A stretch of 64,000 bases of DNA, taken from the NCBI GenBank assembly GCA_000990005.1, contig LBPF01000003.1:71479-135478 (forward strand). Reading direction: 5' to 3'. A program made the translations under genes and the position numbers. This document shows positions 4,449 through 47,584 of this stretch, piece after piece. The notes below the pieces were generated by a model. The model made no database searches, was not told the DNA's origin, and saw only the letters and a program-made list of their open reading frames with translations. The number at the start of each line of letters is the position of its first letter. Positions within the stretch are counted from its first letter, which is position 1. The DNA is from Candidatus Woesebacteria bacterium GW2011_GWB1_33_38 (GTDB taxonomy: Bacteria; Patescibacteriota; Microgenomatia; UBA8517).

Positions 4449-4487
4449 CTTCTACCCAATCTTCAATATTTTATTTCCTGTTTTGCA

Positions 4488-4530
4488 AGGTCAGACCTTA
4501 AAAATCTGGCCATAAAAAGGTCTGACCTTA
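4488..4530. repeat. Perfect 13-bp inverted repeat (AAGGTCAGACCTT / AAGGTCTGACCTT) with 17-nt spacer, downstream of rpsG
   Basis: Read directly from the sequence. No T-run follows on either strand, so it is not a canonical intrinsic terminator. Confidence 0.6.
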
Positions 4531-4720
4531 ATATTGCAGTTAAGTTTTGCATAACTTCAATTCTTCTTTGCTTGTCCAAAGTAAGAATTGGAAGAAGAAA
4601 AGGCACACCTGCCAAAATTATGATAGCAATTTACTTCGTTCATACTTTGTTTGCTAATTAAATTCACTCCATAAATTGAAATCAAATTTTAGAAGGTGGA
4701 GAGAAAGATTTATTTACTTA

Positions 4721-4747
4721 TTGAATTTCGCAGAGAGAGAGTAATAT
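4721..4747 (+). promoter_or_regulatory. Conserved promoter-like element copy 1: TTGAAT-ttcgcagagagagag-TAATAT (15-nt GA-repeat spacer), 10 nt upstream of ATG 4758
   Basis: Motif TTGNAT..CGCAGAGAGAGAG..TAAT recurs at 5752 and 46611. Confidence 0.5.
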
Positions 4748-4757
4748 CAGCCCTATT

Positions 4758-4949
4758 ATGACTTTTGGATTTATTCCAGCTAAAAAAACAGCAAAAGGAG
4801 TTGTCTATGCAGTTTTAGAAAATGGTAGGCCAGTCGATACTTCTCTAGGCGCTAATCCTACTGTTCCTCGCACATTCGTTGATCCTAAAATACATACATA
4901 TCTTCATGGGGAAGAAGGAAAATTAGCTAGTATCAAGAGAAGAGTTTAA
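4758..4949 (+). CDS. Hypothetical small protein (63 aa)
   Basis: ORF immediately downstream of conserved promoter motif copy 1; no recognisable family. Confidence 0.35.
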   Translation: MTFGFIPAKKTAKGVVYAVLENGRPVDTSLGANPTVPRTFVDPKIHTYLHGEEGKLASIKRRV

Positions 4950-4951
4950 AT

Positions 4952-5707
4952 TTATCTTGTAGGAATATTAATAAAAGGAACCCCGTTTGTGGCATTTGGA
5001 AGTTTACCATCCCACTTTTGAACTGCTAAAAATTGTAAATATTCAGCCGATAAACTTCCAGTATTTCTCAAAATCTGTTGAGATTGAGCTTGCCCGTTTG
5101 CTTGAGTTTTTGCGGTTTCAGCCTCAATTTTTGCTCTCTCTAAGTTTTGTTGTGCAACCTGTTTTTGTTCAATCGCATCGTTAAAATCTTTTGAAAAGTC
5201 AAAATTAACAATATTTAAATCATCAACAAATACATTATATTTTTCGAGTCTATTTTTAAGTTCTATTAGTGTAATTTCTCTGACCTTTTCTCTTTTAACT
5301 ATTAAATCTTCAGCAGTAAACTGGGCAGTTGTTGCTTTAAAAGCTTCCTGCATGGCAGGATCAACAACTCTTTCTCTATAATTTATTCCAATGTTTTGAT
5401 AAACATCAACTGCTTTATTGCCATTTAAATGATAATTTAAGGCGATAGTGGACTTTACTTCTTGAAGGTCACTTGAAGCAGCAGTTGCTTCAACCTGTTC
5501 TTTTTGGGTCCTAGTTTCCATAGAAACAACTGATTCAACTAATGGAATTTTTAATGTAAAACCAGGATTAGCTACTCTATTTACAGCACCTAATCTTGTA
5601 ACTACTCCAACATGTCCTGCCCCGACTATAGCCCAAGCGCCAGTAAAAGGAAGGATAAAAAGTATAAGTACAGCAACCAAAATAATTCTAGAGTTTATTT
5701 TTATCAT
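4952..5707 (-). CDS. Band-7 / SPFH (stomatin-prohibitin-HflK/C-like) membrane protein
   Basis: N-terminal TM helix followed by an SPFH-like domain and a C-terminal coiled-coil (..LERAKIEAETAKTQANGQA..). Confidence 0.75.
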   Translation of the reverse strand: MIKINSRIILVAVLILFILPFTGAWAIVGAGHVGVVTRLGAVNRVANPGFTLKIPLVESVVSMETRTQKEQVEATAASSDLQEVKSTIALNYHLNGNKAVDVYQNIGINYRERVVDPAMQEAFKATTAQFTAEDLIVKREKVREITLIELKNRLEKYNVFVDDLNIVNFDFSKDFNDAIEQKQVAQQNLERAKIEAETAKTQANGQAQSQQILRNTGSLSAEYLQFLAVQKWDGKLPNATNGVPFINIPTR

Positions 5708-5751
5708 TTAAACAATCTTAACACGCATGTCAAATATTAGCTTCTTGCTAC

Positions 5752-5780
5752 TTGAATTTCGCAGAGAGAGAGAGTAGTCT
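5752..5780 (+). promoter_or_regulatory. Conserved promoter-like element copy 2: TTGAAT-ttcgcagagagagagag-TAGTCT (17-nt spacer), upstream of ATG 5790
   Basis: Same TTGAATTTCGCAGAGAGAGAG core as copies at 4721 and 46611. Confidence 0.5.
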
Positions 5781-5789
5781 CATCTCTAT

Positions 5790-6005
5790 ATGTCAGAAGA
5801 CGAAAGGCCTTTGAGTGAGACATTGACCGATGCACAAATTGCTGAAGTTTTAAAGGAACATAATCTAGAAGGTACCGCTGAAAACATAGATTTTGTTCGA
5901 AGTACGAGAAAAATCGTGGAAAAATATTTAAAACAACTTGATAGAGGTAGACCTTTTGCAGAAATTTTAACAGAAGTTCGAATAAATTCTTTACATAAAA
6001 ATTAG
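5790..6005 (+). CDS. Hypothetical small acidic protein (71 aa)
   Basis: ORF downstream of motif copy 2; no recognisable family. Confidence 0.4.
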   Translation: MSEDERPLSETLTDAQIAEVLKEHNLEGTAENIDFVRSTRKIVEKYLKQLDRGRPFAEILTEVRINSLHKN

Positions 6006-6109
6006 ACCTGTAAAATTATCCAATCATTTGCTACAATCACTGTTGCTCCATTATGGAGTTTTGTTTTGACTGATCACTTTATATCTGATCACTAATCACT
6101 TGTTATAAA

Positions 6110-8278
6110 ATGGCTGAGGAAAAAGCAAAAAAATCTGCAATTGTAATGACGGCTACTAAAGATCGTAATGTTTCACTGGAAAAAATTAGAAACATTGGAA
6201 TTATTGCCCACATTGATGCAGGTAAAACTACAACTACTGAAAGACTTCTTTTTGAGACGGGCCGTACGTACAAGCAAGGCTCTGTTGATGATGGAACTAC
6301 AGTTACTGATTGGATGGCACAGGAAAGAGAGCGTGGAATTACCATTGTTTCAGCGGCAATTACCGCTTTCTGGGACTTAAAAAAGGACTCTTCCGTTTCC
6401 GCTGGTCATTATAGAATTAATTTGATTGATACTCCAGGACATATTGATTTCACTGCAGAAGTTGAGAGATCCTTAAGAGTTTTGGATGGTGCTTTAATGG
6501 TTTTTGACGGTAGAACTGGAGTTGAATCACAATCTGAAACAGTTTGGAGACAGGCCGATAAATATAATGTTCCAAGAATTTGCGTTTTAAACAAACTTAA
6601 TCTTATAGGATCTGATTTTGATGGATCAATCAAATCAATTAGAGAAAGGCTCGGCGCAAATGCCTCACCTGTTATTTACCCAATTGGCCAGGAACACCAG
6701 CATCGTGGTGTCATTGATCTTATTACCATGAAAGCTCTTACTTATAAAGCAGTTGAAGATGCAAAGCTTGTAGACGAAGAAATACCTAATGATTTTTTGG
6801 AAACCGCTAAAAAATACAGGCAGGAATTAATTGAAAAAGTTTCAGAGTTTGATGACGAAGCCTTGACATTATTCTTGGAAGGCATGGAACCTGACGAAAT
6901 CATTATAAAACGTGCTATTAGGAAAGGTGTTATAGCTGGTAAATTTTTCCCAATTTTTGGGGGGGACAACAGAACTGCAGAAAGCCAACTACTATTGAAT
7001 GGGGTTGTTGAGTATCTACCATCTCCAATTGATTTGCCTGCAATTTCTGGAACAAACCCTAAAACAGGGGAAATTGAAACAAGGGAAAGAAAAAATGAGG
7101 CTGCATTTTCTGGCCTTGCCTTTAAAGTTGTAACAGATCCTCATGTGGGTAGACTTGTCTATGTTAGAGTTTATTCAGGAACCCTAAAAGCAGGACAACA
7201 GGTTTATAACTCAAGTAAACAACTAACAGAAAGAATTGGAAAATTGGTACTTCTTCATGCCGATCAAAGAGAATTAATTGAAGAAGCCTATGCCGGAGAA
7301 ATTGTTGCTGTGGTGGGTGTTAAAGATACAACCACAGGTCACACCATTTGTGATCCAGCTCATCCAATTCATCTTGAATCAATTACATTCCCAGAACCAG
7401 TAATTTCCTTGGCAATTGAACCCGCAACCAAATCTGATCAAGAAAAAATGGGTTTGGCCTTAAATAAACTATCAGATGAAGATCCAACATTTAAAATTAA
7501 AAGTAATCCTGAAACTGGACAAACAATTATTGCTGGAATGGGTGAACTTCAACTTGAAGTCTTGGTCGACAGAATGAAGAGAGAATTTAACGTCGTGGCA
7601 ACCACAGGTGCTCCACAAGTAGCCTACAAAGAAACTATTAAAAAGTATGCAGAAGGTGAAGGAAAGTATATTAGACAAACTGGAGGCCGAGGACAGTATG
7701 GTCATTGTTTACTTAAAGTTGAGCCAAAAAGTAAGGGAGAAGGATTTGAATTTGTTAATCAAATTAAAGGTGGCTCAATTCCAGGAGAGTATATTCCAGC
7801 AATTGAAAAAGGTGCGCGCGAAAAATTAGAAAATGGAATTATGGCAGGGTACCCGATGGTTGATGTTAAAGTTACAGTTTTTGATGGAAGTTACCATGAT
7901 GTTGATTCTTCAGAAATGGCCTTTAAGATAGCAGGTTCTTTAGGTGTTGAAGATGCAGTAAGAAAAGCAGATATGGTTCTTTTAGAGCCTATTATGAAAG
8001 TTGAGGTTTTTACCCCAGCAGAATATATGGGAGATGTTATGGGAGACCTTTCAAGTAAAAGGGCTCAAATTTCAGGATCAGAGGAAAAAGGTGGAGAAAC
8101 TGTTATCTATGCAACAGCGCCTTTGGCAGAACTATCTGGATATGCAACAAAACTCCGTTCCCTTACTCAAGGAAGAGCAAGGGCATATGTAGAGCCTTCT
8201 CATTATGAAGAAGTTCCATCCCACATCGCAGCCCAAATAGTTGCCAAGGCTGGTAAAGTTGAAATGGCAAGAGGATAA
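6110..8278 (+). CDS. fusA: Elongation factor G
   Basis: AHIDAGKTT G1 motif and DTPGHIDF, 722 aa, at the canonical position in the str operon. Confidence 0.95.
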   Translation: MAEEKAKKSAIVMTATKDRNVSLEKIRNIGIIAHIDAGKTTTTERLLFETGRTYKQGSVDDGTTVTDWMAQERERGITIVSAAITAFWDLKKDSSVSAGHYRINLIDTPGHIDFTAEVERSLRVLDGALMVFDGRTGVESQSETVWRQADKYNVPRICVLNKLNLIGSDFDGSIKSIRERLGANASPVIYPIGQEHQHRGVIDLITMKALTYKAVEDAKLVDEEIPNDFLETAKKYRQELIEKVSEFDDEALTLFLEGMEPDEIIIKRAIRKGVIAGKFFPIFGGDNRTAESQLLLNGVVEYLPSPIDLPAISGTNPKTGEIETRERKNEAAFSGLAFKVVTDPHVGRLVYVRVYSGTLKAGQQVYNSSKQLTERIGKLVLLHADQRELIEEAYAGEIVAVVGVKDTTTGHTICDPAHPIHLESITFPEPVISLAIEPATKSDQEKMGLALNKLSDEDPTFKIKSNPETGQTIIAGMGELQLEVLVDRMKREFNVVATTGAPQVAYKETIKKYAEGEGKYIRQTGGRGQYGHCLLKVEPKSKGEGFEFVNQIKGGSIPGEYIPAIEKGAREKLENGIMAGYPMVDVKVTVFDGSYHDVDSSEMAFKIAGSLGVEDAVRKADMVLLEPIMKVEVFTPAEYMGDVMGDLSSKRAQISGSEEKGGETVIYATAPLAELSGYATKLRSLTQGRARAYVEPSHYEEVPSHIAAQIVAKAGKVEMARG

Positions 8279-39788: not shown

Positions 39789-40063
39789 GCTTTAAAGAGG
39801 TGGAACAATTGCCAGGTGCCGTACGGTATCTGGAGGAAAGTCCAGACAGCAGAAGACAGGGTGTCTAGCGTAAGCTAGAGATGCATTTAGTAATAAATGT
39901 AGCCAGTTAGAGCAACAGAGACGAGAAATATGAAACGGGCAATCCTCCCCGCTGCAACCTCCGAATTGGCCGTTTGAGGATGTCTTCCCAAGGCCTAAAG
40001 TATGAGGGCATAGATAGATAATTGTTTTTAAAACAGAATCTGGCTTACTAGCCTCTTTAAAGC
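39789..40063 (+). ncRNA. rnpB: RNase P RNA (bacterial type, reduced ~275 nt)
   Basis: Conserved CR-I GGAGGAAAGTCCAGAC and CR-V ACAGAATCTGGCTTA with compensatory P4 pairing (CCAGA/TCTGG); 12-bp P1 (GCTTTAAAGAGG/CCTCTTTAAAGC); GCAACAGAGA element; P8-like hairpin TCTAGC-GTAA-GCTAGA. Confidence 0.8.
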
Positions 40064-46610: not shown

Positions 46611-46639
46611 TTGCATTTCGCAGAGAGAGAGAGTAATAT
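46611..46639 (+). promoter_or_regulatory. Conserved promoter-like element copy 3: TTGCAT-ttcgcagagagagagag-TAATAT upstream of ATG 46650
   Basis: Same core as the copies at 4721 and 5752. Confidence 0.5.
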
Positions 46640-46649
46640 ATGACCTATA

Positions 46650-46907
46650 ATGCAAAAAGATTTTTTTGATGGACGAGAAAAGGTTGGAAAATTTGAGAAT
46701 GAAGAAGAAGCAACAAAGCTCTTGTCAAGTGGTGCTACTATCTTAAAAGGGGTTGAAATGGTATTGGGTAGAAGAGTTGATGCAAAAGAATTTAAATCTG
46801 ACGAAACACTCAGAGATATAATGAATCCCACATTGGATGGAGAAACAAGATATGCTCTACTTTTTATGAAAAAAAGTTTAGATCCAAAAGAATCGAATCT
46901 TCAATGA
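46650..46907 (+). CDS. Hypothetical small protein (85 aa)
   Basis: ORF downstream of motif copy 3. Confidence 0.4.
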   Translation: MQKDFFDGREKVGKFENEEEATKLLSSGATILKGVEMVLGRRVDAKEFKSDETLRDIMNPTLDGETRYALLFMKKSLDPKESNLQ

Positions 46908-46912
46908 TAAAA

Positions 46913-47203
46913 TTATTCAAACTTCAAAATTAGTTTTGTATTAAAAACTTCTGCAATTCTTTTCAAAAAAGACAATGATGGGTTTCCTGACATGGTTTCA
47001 ATTCTAGAAATTGCGGCTTGAGATGTCCTGAGTCTATTAGCTAAAGTTCTTTGAGAAATATTTTTTTTAATTCTTTTCTCGATAATTTGTTTTGCTAATA
47101 AATATTCAGGTTCAGATTTTTTCCATTCAGCTACAAACTCATGATCATTCATAAGCTCTTTGAAGTGATCATCCAGACTGTAAAGTTTTTGTTTATTGCT
47201 CAT
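46913..47203 (-). CDS. XRE-family HTH antitoxin (HigA-like)
   Basis: ..NISQRTLANRLRTSQAAISRIE.. HTH; downstream of the RelE/HigB-like gene. Confidence 0.7.
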   Translation of the reverse strand: MSNKQKLYSLDDHFKELMNDHEFVAEWKKSEPEYLLAKQIIEKRIKKNISQRTLANRLRTSQAAISRIETMSGNPSLSFLKRIAEVFNTKLILKFE

Positions 47204-47236
47204 ACAAATATGATGATATCATATATGATATCATTG

Positions 47237-47584
47237 TCAATGTCCAAATCTGTTGATCCAGTCATGGTGTCGATCAATAGAAATTTCTAAGTCTTTCTTT
47301 GGAGTTTTTTGCTTTTTCTTGAAAAAACCATGTAATAGTAAAACATCTTGGTTATAAATTATTGCATGAATTATCCTGATATTATCTCTACCTAGAATTC
47401 GTATTTCCCATAAATTGGTTCCTGATAGCTTTTTAGTATAAGGTGATGAAAACTTTAGACCATACTCTTCAATTATTCGTAGTATACGAACAACTTTTGG
47501 TTTTTGTTGTTTGTTCAGAGACATAATAAACTCTTTGATGGGGATGTTATTTAAGATTGTGGTGTAGTAATATATCTTACTCAT
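47237..47584 (-). CDS. RelE/ParE-superfamily toxin, HigB/Gp49-like
   Basis: 115 aa; toxin-first operon order with an XRE antitoxin; ..WEIRILGRDNIRIIHAI.. Confidence 0.6.
   Translation of the reverse strand: MSKIYYYTTILNNIPIKEFIMSLNKQQKPKVVRILRIIEEYGLKFSSPYTKKLSGTNLWEIRILGRDNIRIIHAIIYNQDVLLLHGFFKKKQKTPKKDLEISIDRHHDWINRFGH

What the first reader, a model, noticed from the sequence alone, without database searches (positions are those of the whole stretch)
4721..4760. Conserved TTGNAT-TTCGCAGAGAGAGAG-TAAT element recurs three times, each directly upstream of an unrelated small ORF
The 25-27-nt core cTTG(A/C)ATTTCGCAGAGAGAGAG(AG)TA(A/G)T occurs at 4721, 5752 and 46611. All three copies are on the + strand, and each lies 10-11 nt upstream of the ATG of a small ORF (63, 71 and 85 aa) with no similarity to the other two. 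Its geometry fits a -35/-10 promoter whose spacer is a conserved (GA)5-6 tract. That tract could be a spacer-operator for a regulator, or a dinucleotide repeat that changes spacer length (15 versus 17 nt) in the manner of phase-variable promoters. Two of the three copies flank the SPFH (band-7) gene that interrupts rpsG-fusA. This looks like a small regulon of leaderless small-protein genes.
Basis: seen in the sequence. Interest (0 to 1): 0.66.

Follow-up and report, generated by a model that had tools for sequence, protein, structure and literature searches.

The report
Small-gene promoters with a (GA)n spacer
Three short genes of unknown function in an uncultured groundwater bacterium (Candidatus Woesebacteria) sit behind near-identical promoter-like sequences whose middle section is a GA dinucleotide repeat; the repeat is conserved in related genomes but its length differs in 2-base steps, which may set how strongly each gene is transcribed.

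Summary
TTG(A/C)AT-TTCGC-(AG)5-6-TA(A/G)T(A/C)T occurs exactly three times in the window (4721, 5752, 46611), all on the + strand. Each copy ends 9-10 nt before the ATG of an unrelated small ORF. A profile scores these three at 52-56 bits and the next best site at 6.7 bits.

The window is Candidatus Woesebacteria GW2011_GWA1_33_30. Orthologous loci from about ten other lineages carry the same element before the same ORFs. A fourth, unrelated ORF carries it in one relative.

Across 13 distinct instances the invariant positions are TTG, the AG tract, TA---T and the start codon. That is the signature of a sigma-70-type promoter sitting almost on the start codon. SD sequences are rare in this genome and many genes have a -10 box 5-10 nt before the ATG.

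The AG tract stays pure while flanks diverge. Its unit number runs from 4 to 7, giving spacers of 13, 15, 17 or 19 nt with a mode of 17. Independent assemblies of one lineage never differ, so rapid phase variation is not shown.

Best reading: a lineage-specific promoter family for near-leaderless small-protein genes, with a selected but slippage-prone (AG)n spacer. Whether they share a regulator (a regulon) is untested. Moderately interesting; a new variant of a known kind.

The parts
4721..4747 (+). Promoter copy 1: -35 TTGAAT (4721-4726), spacer TTCGC+(AG)5 (4727-4741, 15 nt), -10 TAATAT (4742-4747)
   Evidence: 54.0 bits. The ortholog in L137/L138 has TTGAAA-TCTTC-(AG)6-TAATAT with an identical downstream CAGCCCTATT.
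4748..4757 (+). Discriminator and predicted start element (CAGCCC-TAT-T). The predicted transcription start is A4755, leaving a 3-nt leader.
   Evidence: Inferred from -10 geometry. C/T-T-A-T is conserved before the ATG in most instances. The Y-R-Y 'start element' concept comes from PMC12641261. No transcription start data exist.
4758..4949 (+). ORF63, an orphan small basic protein (pI 10)
   Evidence: one homologue, P0014; C-terminal half conserved. Codon-position differences are 5/4/13. No Pfam, NCBIfam, PHROG or PADLOC hit.
4952..5707 (-). SPFH/Band-7 gene, convergent with ORF63 and divergent from copy 2. It belongs to the lineage-specific insert, not to the motif family.
   Evidence: PF01145, E=3e-31. 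Absent from L133-136 and L139, present in L137.
5752..5780 (+). Promoter copy 2: -35 TTGAAT (5752-5757), spacer TTCGC+(AG)6 (5758-5774, 17 nt), -10 TAGTCT (5775-5780)
   Evidence: 52.0 bits. It lies in an 82-nt divergent gap, so ORF71 needs its own promoter here. Orthologs: L133-136 (AG)6, L139 (AG)5, L142 (AG)4.
5790..6005 (+). ORF71, an orphan small acidic helical protein, conserved between rpsG and fusA in relatives
   Evidence: homologues at 82-92% identity. (codon-position differences 6/6/17 and 10/6/22). The AF2 model has pLDDT 68 and no PDB fold match. A weak sub-threshold LEM-like hit appears.
6045..6069 (+). Terminator-like hairpin plus T-run, downstream of ORF71 and upstream of fusA
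   Evidence: The hairpin is kept in L133, which has the same 5-bp stem core, a wider loop (TGAAT for TTA) and one change at the outermost stem position. It could end the ORF71 transcript or be a fusA leader element; its role is inferred.
46611..46639 (+). Promoter copy 3: -35 TTGCAT (46611-46616), spacer TTCGC+(AG)6 (46617-46633, 17 nt), -10 TAATAT (46634-46639)
   Evidence: 55.8 bits. Orthologs: L140 (AG)6; L128-130/L119 and L131 (AG)7; L141 TTTCAAA+(AG)5, still 17 nt; L132 has a decayed tract.
46650..46907 (+). ORF85, an orphan small acidic helical protein
   Evidence: 7 homologues down to 58% identity. (33 invariant columns). (codon-position differences 10/9/29). The AF2 model has pLDDT 74 and no PDB fold match.

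Best explanation
Each copy is a housekeeping-sigma (sigma-70-type) promoter placed almost on top of a start codon. Its parts are a -35 box TTGNNT, a spacer made of about 5 variable bases (T-Y-Y-N-C) plus a pure (AG)n tract, a -10 box TANNNT, a 6-nt discriminator and a pyrimidine-A-pyrimidine start site. Transcription would begin 1-3 nt before the ATG. The result is a nearly leaderless, SD-less mRNA for one small orphan protein (ORF63, ORF71, ORF85; ORF70 in a relative).

The three copies are paralogous members of one promoter family, so far seen only in this Woesebacteria clade. Selection keeps the (AG)n tract homopurine, but the tract slips in 2-bp steps over evolutionary time. This sets the -35/-10 spacing at 13, 15, 17 or 19 nt, most often 17. 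I infer that the spacing sets promoter strength differently per gene and per lineage. The shared spacer could also let one factor control all members.

Shown: the element, its position, its conservation pattern, the repeat-number variation, and that the ORFs are coding. Inferred: that transcription starts there, that spacing tunes strength, and any common regulator.
For: 1. Non-random and discrete: 3 copies against 0.00-0.09 expected; profile scores of 52-56 bits against a next best of 6.7.

2. Conservation follows the promoter pattern. In 13 distinct instances the invariant columns are TTG of the -35, the AG tract, T-A...T of the -10 and the TG of the start codon. The N5 block, the interior of the -10 and the discriminator all vary.

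3. The motif is more conserved than neutral sites. Window versus L128 has 2 substitutions in about 46 motif positions, against 29 of 84 third codon positions in the adjacent ORF. The sequence upstream of the -35 has diverged with indels.

4. Position: the -10 ends 8-10 nt before the start codon in 12 of 13 instances (12 nt before the preferred ATG in L132). No SD is present.

5. Copy 2 and its L137 counterpart lie in short divergent gaps (82 and 70 nt), so the downstream ORF must have its own promoter there.

6. Genome style: only 13 of 83 crude genes have an SD-like tetramer. 34 of 83 have a -10-like hexamer 4-12 nt before the start, against 20 in a control window. Clear TTGACA-N16-17-TATAAT-like promoters abut other ATGs. 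GeneMarkS-2 describes this geometry for leaderless bacterial genes (PMC6028130).

7. Spacer length behaves like a constrained quantity. The mode is 17 nt (7 of 14 lineage-instances). In L141 a shorter (AG)5 is offset by a 7-nt instead of 5-nt proximal block, which restores 17 nt.

8. No RNA structure (z-scores -0.7 to +0.55) and no Rfam family.

9. A terminator-like hairpin follows ORF71.
Against: - There is no transcription start or expression data.
- By the E. coli consensus the sites are mediocre, at 7-9 of 12 matches: only copy 3 reaches the 9-of-12 cut-off, so the generic scanner did not list copies 1 and 2, and copy 3 is also missing from its list.
- Some -10 boxes are weak (TAGTCT, TAACGT).
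- Spacers of 13 nt (L142) and 19 nt (L128, L131) would be poor or inactive for a canonical sigma-70 holoenzyme. Either those promoters are weak or off, or TTGNNT is not used as a -35 in the usual way.
- One ortholog (L137 ORF63') has a GTG start, which is unusual for a near-leaderless mRNA.
- Length tuning alone does not explain why the tract stays AG rather than drifting.
- Only about 72 kb of this genome could be examined, so the size of the family is unknown.
Confidence: 0.68

Rival explanations
1. Spacer-operator regulon. The promoters are as described, but the point of the conserved C-(AG)n tract is to bind one dedicated trans-acting factor. That factor could be a repressor sitting between -35 and -10, or an activator that compensates for non-optimal spacing. 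The small proteins would then be co-regulated. This refines the best explanation and does not exclude it.
For: The AG tract is sequence-conserved, not just length-conserved. It stays pure across three gene families and about 12 lineages while neighbouring promoter positions vary. A core CAGAGAGAG is present in 11 of 13 instances whatever the value of n. Four unrelated genes share the element.
Against: The tract has no dyad symmetry or spaced direct repeats of the kind most bacterial regulators use. No regulator gene is consistently adjacent; the neighbours differ at the three loci. The most diverged ortholog has lost tract purity (AGAGTGTGAG in L132) yet keeps the -35/-10. The three products share no functional theme.
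Confidence: 0.3
2. Contingency (phase-variable) promoters. Slipped-strand mispairing of the (AG)n tract switches individual cells between ON (17 nt) and OFF or low (15 or 19 nt) at high frequency, as the (TA)n tract does in the Haemophilus influenzae hifA/hifB promoter.
For: The repeat lies exactly between -35 and -10. The unit number differs between paralogous copies (5, 6, 6) and between orthologs (4, 5, 6, 7) in 2-bp steps. The known precedents are summarised in PMC3899988.
Against: Tracts are short (4-7 units), whereas classical switches use longer arrays. Independent assemblies from different samples of the same lineage always agree: 6 for the window lineage, 3 for L128-130, 4 for L133-136 and 2 for L137/138. 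The products look cytoplasmic, not surface-exposed (and direct reading). Consensus assemblies cannot exclude minority variants.
Confidence: 0.12
3. Recombination or cassette junction. The motif is a site at which small-gene cassettes are inserted or exchanged, so the copies are scars or att-like sites and not primarily promoters.
For: Relatives L133-136 and L139 have one motif at the 'empty' rpsG-fusA site. The window has two direct copies bracketing ORF63+SPFH. Window/L133 homology resumes exactly at copy 2 (window 5745). In L137 an unrelated ORF70 replaces ORF71 between the motif and the conserved fusA promoter block.
Against: Breakpoints at gene boundaries are expected anyway. 272 nt of unrelated sequence lie between rpsG and copy 1, so the left junction is not at a motif. 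No recombinase gene is near any copy; the nearest transposase and resolvase are more than 20 kb past copy 3. The copy 3 locus is syntenic in all relatives, and in L140 an SNase gene is inserted upstream without motif duplication. The conservation pattern TTG/TA...T is not explained by this model.
Confidence: 0.08
4. Transcribed 5'-UTR element. Transcription starts upstream, and the purine tract acts in the mRNA as a translation enhancer, ribosome standby site or protein-binding site.
For: Copy 3 begins only 16 nt after the secF stop, with no terminator between, so read-through transcripts would contain the tract. GA-rich sequence resembles a weak SD.
Against: The tract ends 15-16 nt before the ATG, too far for an SD. 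There is no conserved RNA fold and no Rfam match. In the divergent arrangement of copy 2 only 44 nt lie upstream of the element. This model does not explain invariance at TTG and TA...T.
Confidence: 0.05

Closest known systems
Haemophilus influenzae hifA/hifB fimbrial promoter with a (TA)n spacer repeat (van Ham et al. 1993, as summarised in PMC3899988)
   Same: A dinucleotide repeat forms the spacer between -35 and -10. Changes in unit number alter the spacing in 2-bp steps.
   Different: Here the unit is AG (homopurine), not TA. Arrays are shorter (4-7 units). The tract is not shared by two overlapping divergent promoters; my direct reading places a candidate SPFH -10 (TAAGAT, 7 nt before its ATG) outside the motif. 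Several unlinked promoters share the element. The products are small cytoplasmic orphans, not surface structures. Within-population switching is not shown.
Homopolymer-spacer promoters: Neisseria meningitidis porA poly-G and Mycoplasma hyorhinis vlp poly-A (PMC3899988)
   Same: A simple-sequence tract between -35 and -10 modulates transcription through spacer length.
   Different: Those tracts change in mononucleotide steps, belong to surface antigens of host-associated pathogens, and their phase variation is experimentally proven.
Leaderless or short-leader genes with a Pribnow box about 6-10 nt from the start codon (GeneMarkS-2 'group C' genomes, PMC6028130; mycobacterial leaderless small proteins, PMC4633059)
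   Same: The -10 box lies directly before the ATG, there is no SD, and the products are small proteins.
   Different: The lineage is Patescibacteria/CPR. The predicted leader is 1-3 nt rather than 0. The distinguishing feature is the shared repeat-containing spacer, which those systems lack.
MerR-type promoters (over-long 19-20-bp spacer occupied by the regulator); from general knowledge, not tested
   Same: A regulator site would lie inside the spacer. Some instances here have 19-nt spacers.
   Different: MerR operators are dyad-symmetric and the AG tract is not. No MerR-family gene is adjacent. Spacer length here is variable, not fixed at 19-20.

Membership tests
Sigma-70-type (-35/-10) promoter | -35 hexamer resembling TTGACA, with TTG most conserved | tested here: met
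   TTG is invariant in 13 of 13 distinct instances. The hexamers are TTGAAT, TTGCAT, TTGAAA and TTGACT.
Sigma-70-type (-35/-10) promoter | -10 hexamer resembling TATAAT, with T1, A2 and T6 most conserved | tested here: met
   T-A-N3-T is invariant in 13 of 13, with variable interior positions: TAATAT, TATTAT, TAGTCT, TAACGT, TAATGT, TACTAT. One further instance, inferred only from an over-called protein (P0003), would read TATTAC.
Sigma-70-type (-35/-10) promoter | Spacer of 17 +/- 1 bp | tested here: inconclusive
   The mode is 17 nt (7 lineage-instances), but 15 nt (4), 19 nt (2) and 13 nt (1) also occur.
Sigma-70-type (-35/-10) promoter | Transcription start about 7 nt downstream of the -10 | not testable with these tools
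   No transcriptome data are available. Only a conserved Y-A-Y triplet at the predicted position is seen.
Leaderless or near-leaderless mRNA gene | -10 box about 6-10 nt before the start codon, and no SD | tested here: met
   The -10 ends 8-10 nt before the start codon in 12 of 13 instances (12 nt before the second, preferred ATG in L132). No GGAG, GAGG or AGGA lies in the gap. This geometry is common in the genome.
Leaderless or near-leaderless mRNA gene | AUG start codon at or next to the 5' end | tested here: inconclusive
   ATG in 12 of 13 instances and GTG in L137 ORF63'. The 5' end is not mapped.
Phase-variable simple-sequence-repeat promoter (contingency locus) | Simple-sequence repeat located between -35 and -10 | tested here: met
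   (AG)4-7 fills most of the spacer.
Phase-variable simple-sequence-repeat promoter (contingency locus) | Repeat number polymorphic within a strain or population, with frequent reversible switching | tested here: not met
   15 independent assemblies of four lineages show no within-lineage difference. Variation appears only between lineages. Read-level minority variants could not be examined.
Phase-variable simple-sequence-repeat promoter (contingency locus) | Expression changes with repeat number | not testable with these tools
   This needs reporter assays or transcriptomes.
Structured cis-regulatory RNA or known Rfam family | Match to a curated covariance model, or a stable conserved fold | tested here: not met
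   There is no Rfam hit at gathering threshold, and only chance-level hits at E up to 10. Fold z-scores range from -0.7 to +0.55.
Site-specific recombination site or gene-cassette system | Recombinase nearby, and junctions of insertions at the site on both sides | tested here: not met
   No recombinase lies at any of the loci. The right junction of the rpsG-fusA insert coincides with copy 2, but the left junction does not coincide with a motif.

The most novel reading that the evidence does not exclude
The (AG)n promoter is a portable expression module of this Woesebacteria clade. It marks slots where orphan small-protein genes are inserted and swapped, as with ORF71 versus ORF70 and the ORF63+SPFH insert. 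Its slippage-prone spacer would act as a heritable, reversible expression dial. That would be a contingency or cassette system in a free-living candidate-phyla-radiation (CPR) bacterium, possibly read by a dedicated factor that binds GA tracts.
Probability: 0.12. Interest if true: 0.75.

Novelty: new variant of a known kind. Interest (0 to 1): 0.42.

Why it matters
Almost nothing is known about transcription signals or gene regulation in Patescibacteria/CPR, which are uncultured and have very small genomes. This element gives a concrete, testable cis-element. It is a promoter family with a conserved homopurine dinucleotide-repeat spacer, tied to orphan small proteins and to near-leaderless expression.

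If repeat length tunes or switches expression, repeat-mediated promoter variation would extend from host-associated pathogens to groundwater CPR bacteria. If a factor binds the tract, it would define one of the first CPR regulons.

The element also explains recurrent annotation errors. Gene callers start ORFs at the TTG of the -35 box and translate the motif as '..HFAERES..'.

Tried and rejected
All were seed-only chance matches in unrelated phyla, such as tRNA ends and longer GA microsatellites; none carried the TTG...TA...T context. They scored 20.5 bits or less with the profile, against 36-56 bits for true instances. So nothing can be said about other Woesebacteria species from that scan.

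2. The viral-contig scan gave 3 unrelated hits.

3. The metagenome scan with the 21-nt pattern gave only one locus, the copy 3 ortholog.

4. Rfam at gathering threshold and at E up to 10 found nothing at the motif.

5. RNA folding of five instances showed no structure beyond shuffles.

6. Pfam, NCBIfam, PHROG and PADLOC scans of the small ORFs gave no significant family; there was only a sub-threshold LEM-like hit for ORF71. AF2 models (pLDDT 74 and 68) with Foldseek against the PDB gave no match with E below 2. No functional theme for a 'regulon' emerged.

7. I tried to extend the genome beyond the window. One look-up failed because the start codon did not match the record. The other added about 8 kb to the right and found no further copy.

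8. The generic sigma-70 scanner lists none of the three copies. Copies 1 and 2 score 7-8 of 12, and copy 1 also has a 15-nt spacer; copy 3 counts 9 of 12 with a 17-nt spacer yet is still missing from the list. I did not take this as evidence against promoter function in this lineage.

9. An alternative -10 at the CTAT(A/T)ATG box was rejected. It would place the transcription start inside ORFs whose N-termini are conserved, and it has no -35 partner.

10. Concerted evolution of the N5 block within a genome was considered, because all three window copies have TTCGC. I dropped it: TTCGC is also found in L128, L131 and L140, so it is probably ancestral.

Full report
**What is in the sequence.** The window is a low-GC (about 34%) piece of Candidatus Woesebacteria bacterium GW2011_GWA1_33_30, contig UR39_C0003. 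Public records name the three small ORFs UR39_C0003G0089, G0091 and G0155.

- Copy 1: TTGAAT-TTCGC-(AG)5-TAATAT at 4721-4747.
- Copy 2: TTGAAT-TTCGC-(AG)6-TAGTCT at 5752-5780.
- Copy 3: TTGCAT-TTCGC-(AG)6-TAATAT at 46611-46639.

The 15-mer TTCGCAGAGAGAGAG has three exact matches. Allowing two mismatches adds none; 0.09 are expected, and 0 of 100 shuffles reach 3. The 23-mer with up to three mismatches has an expectation of 0.00. A 55-position profile built from all instances found later scores the three sites at 52-56 bits and the next best site in 64 kb at 6.7 bits, with filters off. So there are exactly three discrete copies and no decayed ones.

Each copy precedes an ATG: ORF63 at 4758, ORF71 at 5790 and ORF85 at 46650. 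The gap from the TANNNT hexamer is 10, 9 and 10 nt. The ORFs share no similarity; the best blastp E-value is 1.1.

**Comparative evidence.** Exact-protein look-ups and homologue searches recovered orthologous loci from other groundwater assemblies.

ORF85 family, downstream of secDF:

| Locus | Element | Spacer (nt) |
|---|---|---|
| window, L123-127 | TTGCAT-TTCGC-(AG)6-TAATAT | 17 |
| L140 | same | 17 |
| L119/L128-130 (86% protein identity) | (AG)7-TATTAT | 19 |
| L131 (64% identity) | (AG)7 | 19 |
| L141 | TTGACT-TTTCAAA-(AG)5-TATTAT | 17 |
| L132 (58% identity) | TTGACT-TTCAC-AGAGTGTGAG-TACTAT | 15 |

ORF71 family, between rpsG and fusA:

| Locus | Element | Spacer (nt) |
|---|---|---|
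| window | (AG)6 | 17 |
| L133-136 | TTTAC-(AG)6-TAACGT | 17 |
| L139 | (AG)5-TAATGT | 15 |
| L142 | TTTGC-(AG)4-TAATGT | 13 |

ORF63 family:

| Locus | Element | Spacer (nt) |
|---|---|---|
| window | (AG)5 | 15 |
| L137/L138 (Woesebacteria RIFOXYD1_FULL_33_11) | TTGAAA-TCTTC-(AG)6-TAATAT, then the identical CAGCCCTATT and a GTG start | 17 |

In L137 the slot of ORF71 is taken by an unrelated 70-aa ORF. It is preceded by TTGAAT-TCTGC-(AG)5-TAATAT, a 15-nt spacer. One more instance can be read from an over-called database protein, P0003 (..HFAERESITCPIM..), and implies (AG)6.

The full-length element was found only in these Woesebacteria loci. Unrelated genomes that happen to contain the 16-mer match only over that seed, at 20.5 bits or less.

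**Why it is a promoter.** In the alignment of 13 distinct instances the invariant columns are TTG, the AG tract, T-A-N3-T and the TG of the start codon. The five bases after the -35, the interior of the -10 and the discriminator vary. TTG... and TA...T are the positions that matter most in sigma-70 promoters (established knowledge).

The element evolves more slowly than neutral sites. Between the window and L128 it has 2 substitutions in about 46 positions plus one AG unit. By contrast, 29 of 84 third codon positions differ in the adjoining ORF, and the sequence just upstream of the -35 has diverged with indels.

Copy 2 and its L137 counterpart lie in divergent gaps of 82 and 70 nt next to the SPFH gene. 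The downstream ORF must therefore be transcribed from within that gap, and the element is the only conserved block there.

The geometry fits the genome's general style:
- Only 13 of 83 crudely called genes have an SD-like tetramer.
- 34 of 83 have a -10-like hexamer ending 4-12 nt before the start, against 20 in a control window.
- Several genes show textbook TTGACA-N16-17-TATAAT-like boxes 6-10 nt before the ATG.

GeneMarkS-2 describes this arrangement for bacterial leaderless genes (PMC6028130). The second conserved box, (C/T)TAT just before the ATG, sits where the transcription start should be. It has the Y-R-Y form of the 'start element' described in PMC12641261. This predicts starts at A4755, A5788 and A46647 and leaders of 2-3 nt.

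A terminator-like hairpin follows ORF71. There is no RNA structure (z-scores near 0) and no Rfam family.

The ORFs are genuine genes. Codon-position differences are 6/6/17 and 10/6/22 for ORF71, 10/9/29 for ORF85 and 5/4/13 for the conserved C-terminus of ORF63.

**The AG tract.** Two facts stand side by side.

First, the tract's composition is conserved. It is a pure AG array in 12 of 13 instances across three gene families, although the adjacent N5 block drifts (TTCGC, TTTGC, TTTAC, TCTGC, TCTTC, TTCAC). Only the most diverged ortholog (L132) has interruptions. So something selects for the sequence, not merely for a length.

Second, the unit number is not conserved. It runs 4, 5, 6 and 7, giving spacers of 13, 15, 17 and 19 nt. 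The mode is 17 (7 lineage-instances, against 4, 2 and 1 for 15, 19 and 13). In L141 a loss of one AG unit is offset by two extra bases in the proximal block, which restores 17 nt. This points to selection on total spacing as well.

Variation is seen only between lineages. Six assemblies of the window lineage, three of L128-130, four of L133-136 and two of L137/138, from different samples, each agree on one number.

I therefore read the tract as a selected homopurine spacer that slips occasionally and so re-sets promoter spacing over evolutionary time. Rapid phase variation, as in the H. influenzae hifA/B (TA)n promoter (PMC3899988), is not excluded at the read level. It is not supported by what could be tested, and the arrays are short. 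A shared spacer-binding regulator is plausible because the sequence is conserved. It remains untested; the tract has no dyad symmetry and no regulator gene is consistently nearby.

**History of the rpsG-fusA block.**
- In L133-136 and L139 the str operon reads rpsL-rpsG-[motif-ORF71]-fusA.
- In the window, 4449-5744 is extra sequence: 272 nt of unrelated DNA, then motif-ORF63 and the SPFH gene on the opposite strand. Homology to L133 resumes at 5745, just before copy 2.
- L137 has the same insert (91.6% identity over the ORF63 C-terminus plus SPFH), an additional ORF104 with its own canonical promoter, and ORF70 in place of ORF71. The swap is bounded by the motif on the left and a conserved TGCTACAAT block before fusA on the right.

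This makes the gap a variable slot for small genes and prompts the cassette-junction rival. I rate that rival low, because the left junction is not at a motif and no recombinase is near any copy.

**What the products are.** This is unknown. There is no significant Pfam, NCBIfam, PHROG or PADLOC family. AF2 models of ORF85 and ORF71 are small helical bundles (pLDDT 74 and 68) without PDB fold matches. ORF63 is basic (pI 10) and the others are acidic. None has an obvious signal peptide (direct reading). Nothing ties the products together functionally, so 'regulon' remains a hypothesis resting only on the shared cis-element.

**Verdict.** Repeat-number variation is real but occurs between lineages. 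Phase variation and a dedicated regulator are unproven.

The element is best filed as a new variant of a known kind: a promoter whose spacer is a simple-sequence repeat. Here the repeat is a homopurine dinucleotide, shared by several unlinked promoters of orphan small-protein genes in a CPR lineage.

Limits of this analysis:
- Only about 72 kb of the genome could be read.
- There are no expression data.

Noticed in passing
window 4487-4529: Two 13-bp palindromes, AAGGTCAGACCTT (4487-4499) and AAGGTCTGACCTT (4517-4529), lie 17 nt apart just after the rpsG stop. They are reverse complements of each other and sit inside the lineage-specific insert. They could be a hairpin or a pair of operator sites.
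   Followed up: no
window about 6031-6100 (fusA leader); L133 about 6230-6290; L137 about 7340-7400: A TGCTACAAT block (extended -10-like) is conserved in three genomes upstream of fusA. It is followed by a hairpin plus T-run (6045-6069), with the stem core kept and the loop changed in L133. In the window, direct repeats CTGATCACT follow at 6070-6078 and 6085-6093. This may be a fusA promoter with a leader or attenuator.
   Followed up: partly
window 4449-6109; L133 5864-6291; L137 5620-7446: The rpsG-fusA gap is a variable slot. Relatives carry only motif-ORF71. The window adds motif-ORF63 plus a reverse-strand SPFH gene. L137 further adds ORF104 (coiled-coil-like) and replaces ORF71 with an unrelated ORF70.
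   Followed up: yes
database proteins P0003, P0004, P0010, P0014 (loci L140, L139, L137): Public gene calls over-extend these small ORFs through the motif. They start at the TTG of the -35 box (giving N-termini such as MGLHFAERESNICPIM) or at an ATG inside the -10 box. This is an annotation artefact caused by the element.
   Followed up: yes
whole window: SD sequences are rare: 13 of 83 crudely called genes. Many genes have a TATAAT-like box 5-10 nt before the ATG, often with TTGACA 16-17 nt upstream. This suggests widespread leaderless or very-short-leader transcription in this Woesebacteria genome.
   Followed up: partly
window 46913-47584 (minus strand): A Gp49/HigB-like toxin gene (47237-47584) and an XRE-type HTH antitoxin gene (46913-47203) form a pair that converges on ORF85. 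The pair is kept in L128-type relatives but absent in L140 and L141.
   Followed up: no
window 39793-40063: The RNase P RNA (class A) match spans only 271 nt against a 367-position model, just above the gathering score (103 versus 100 bits). This is a reduced RNase P RNA, as often seen in CPR bacteria.
   Followed up: no
L140 4952-5509: In one relative a staphylococcal-nuclease-like (SNase) gene is inserted between secF and the motif-ORF85 unit, without any motif duplication.
   Followed up: no
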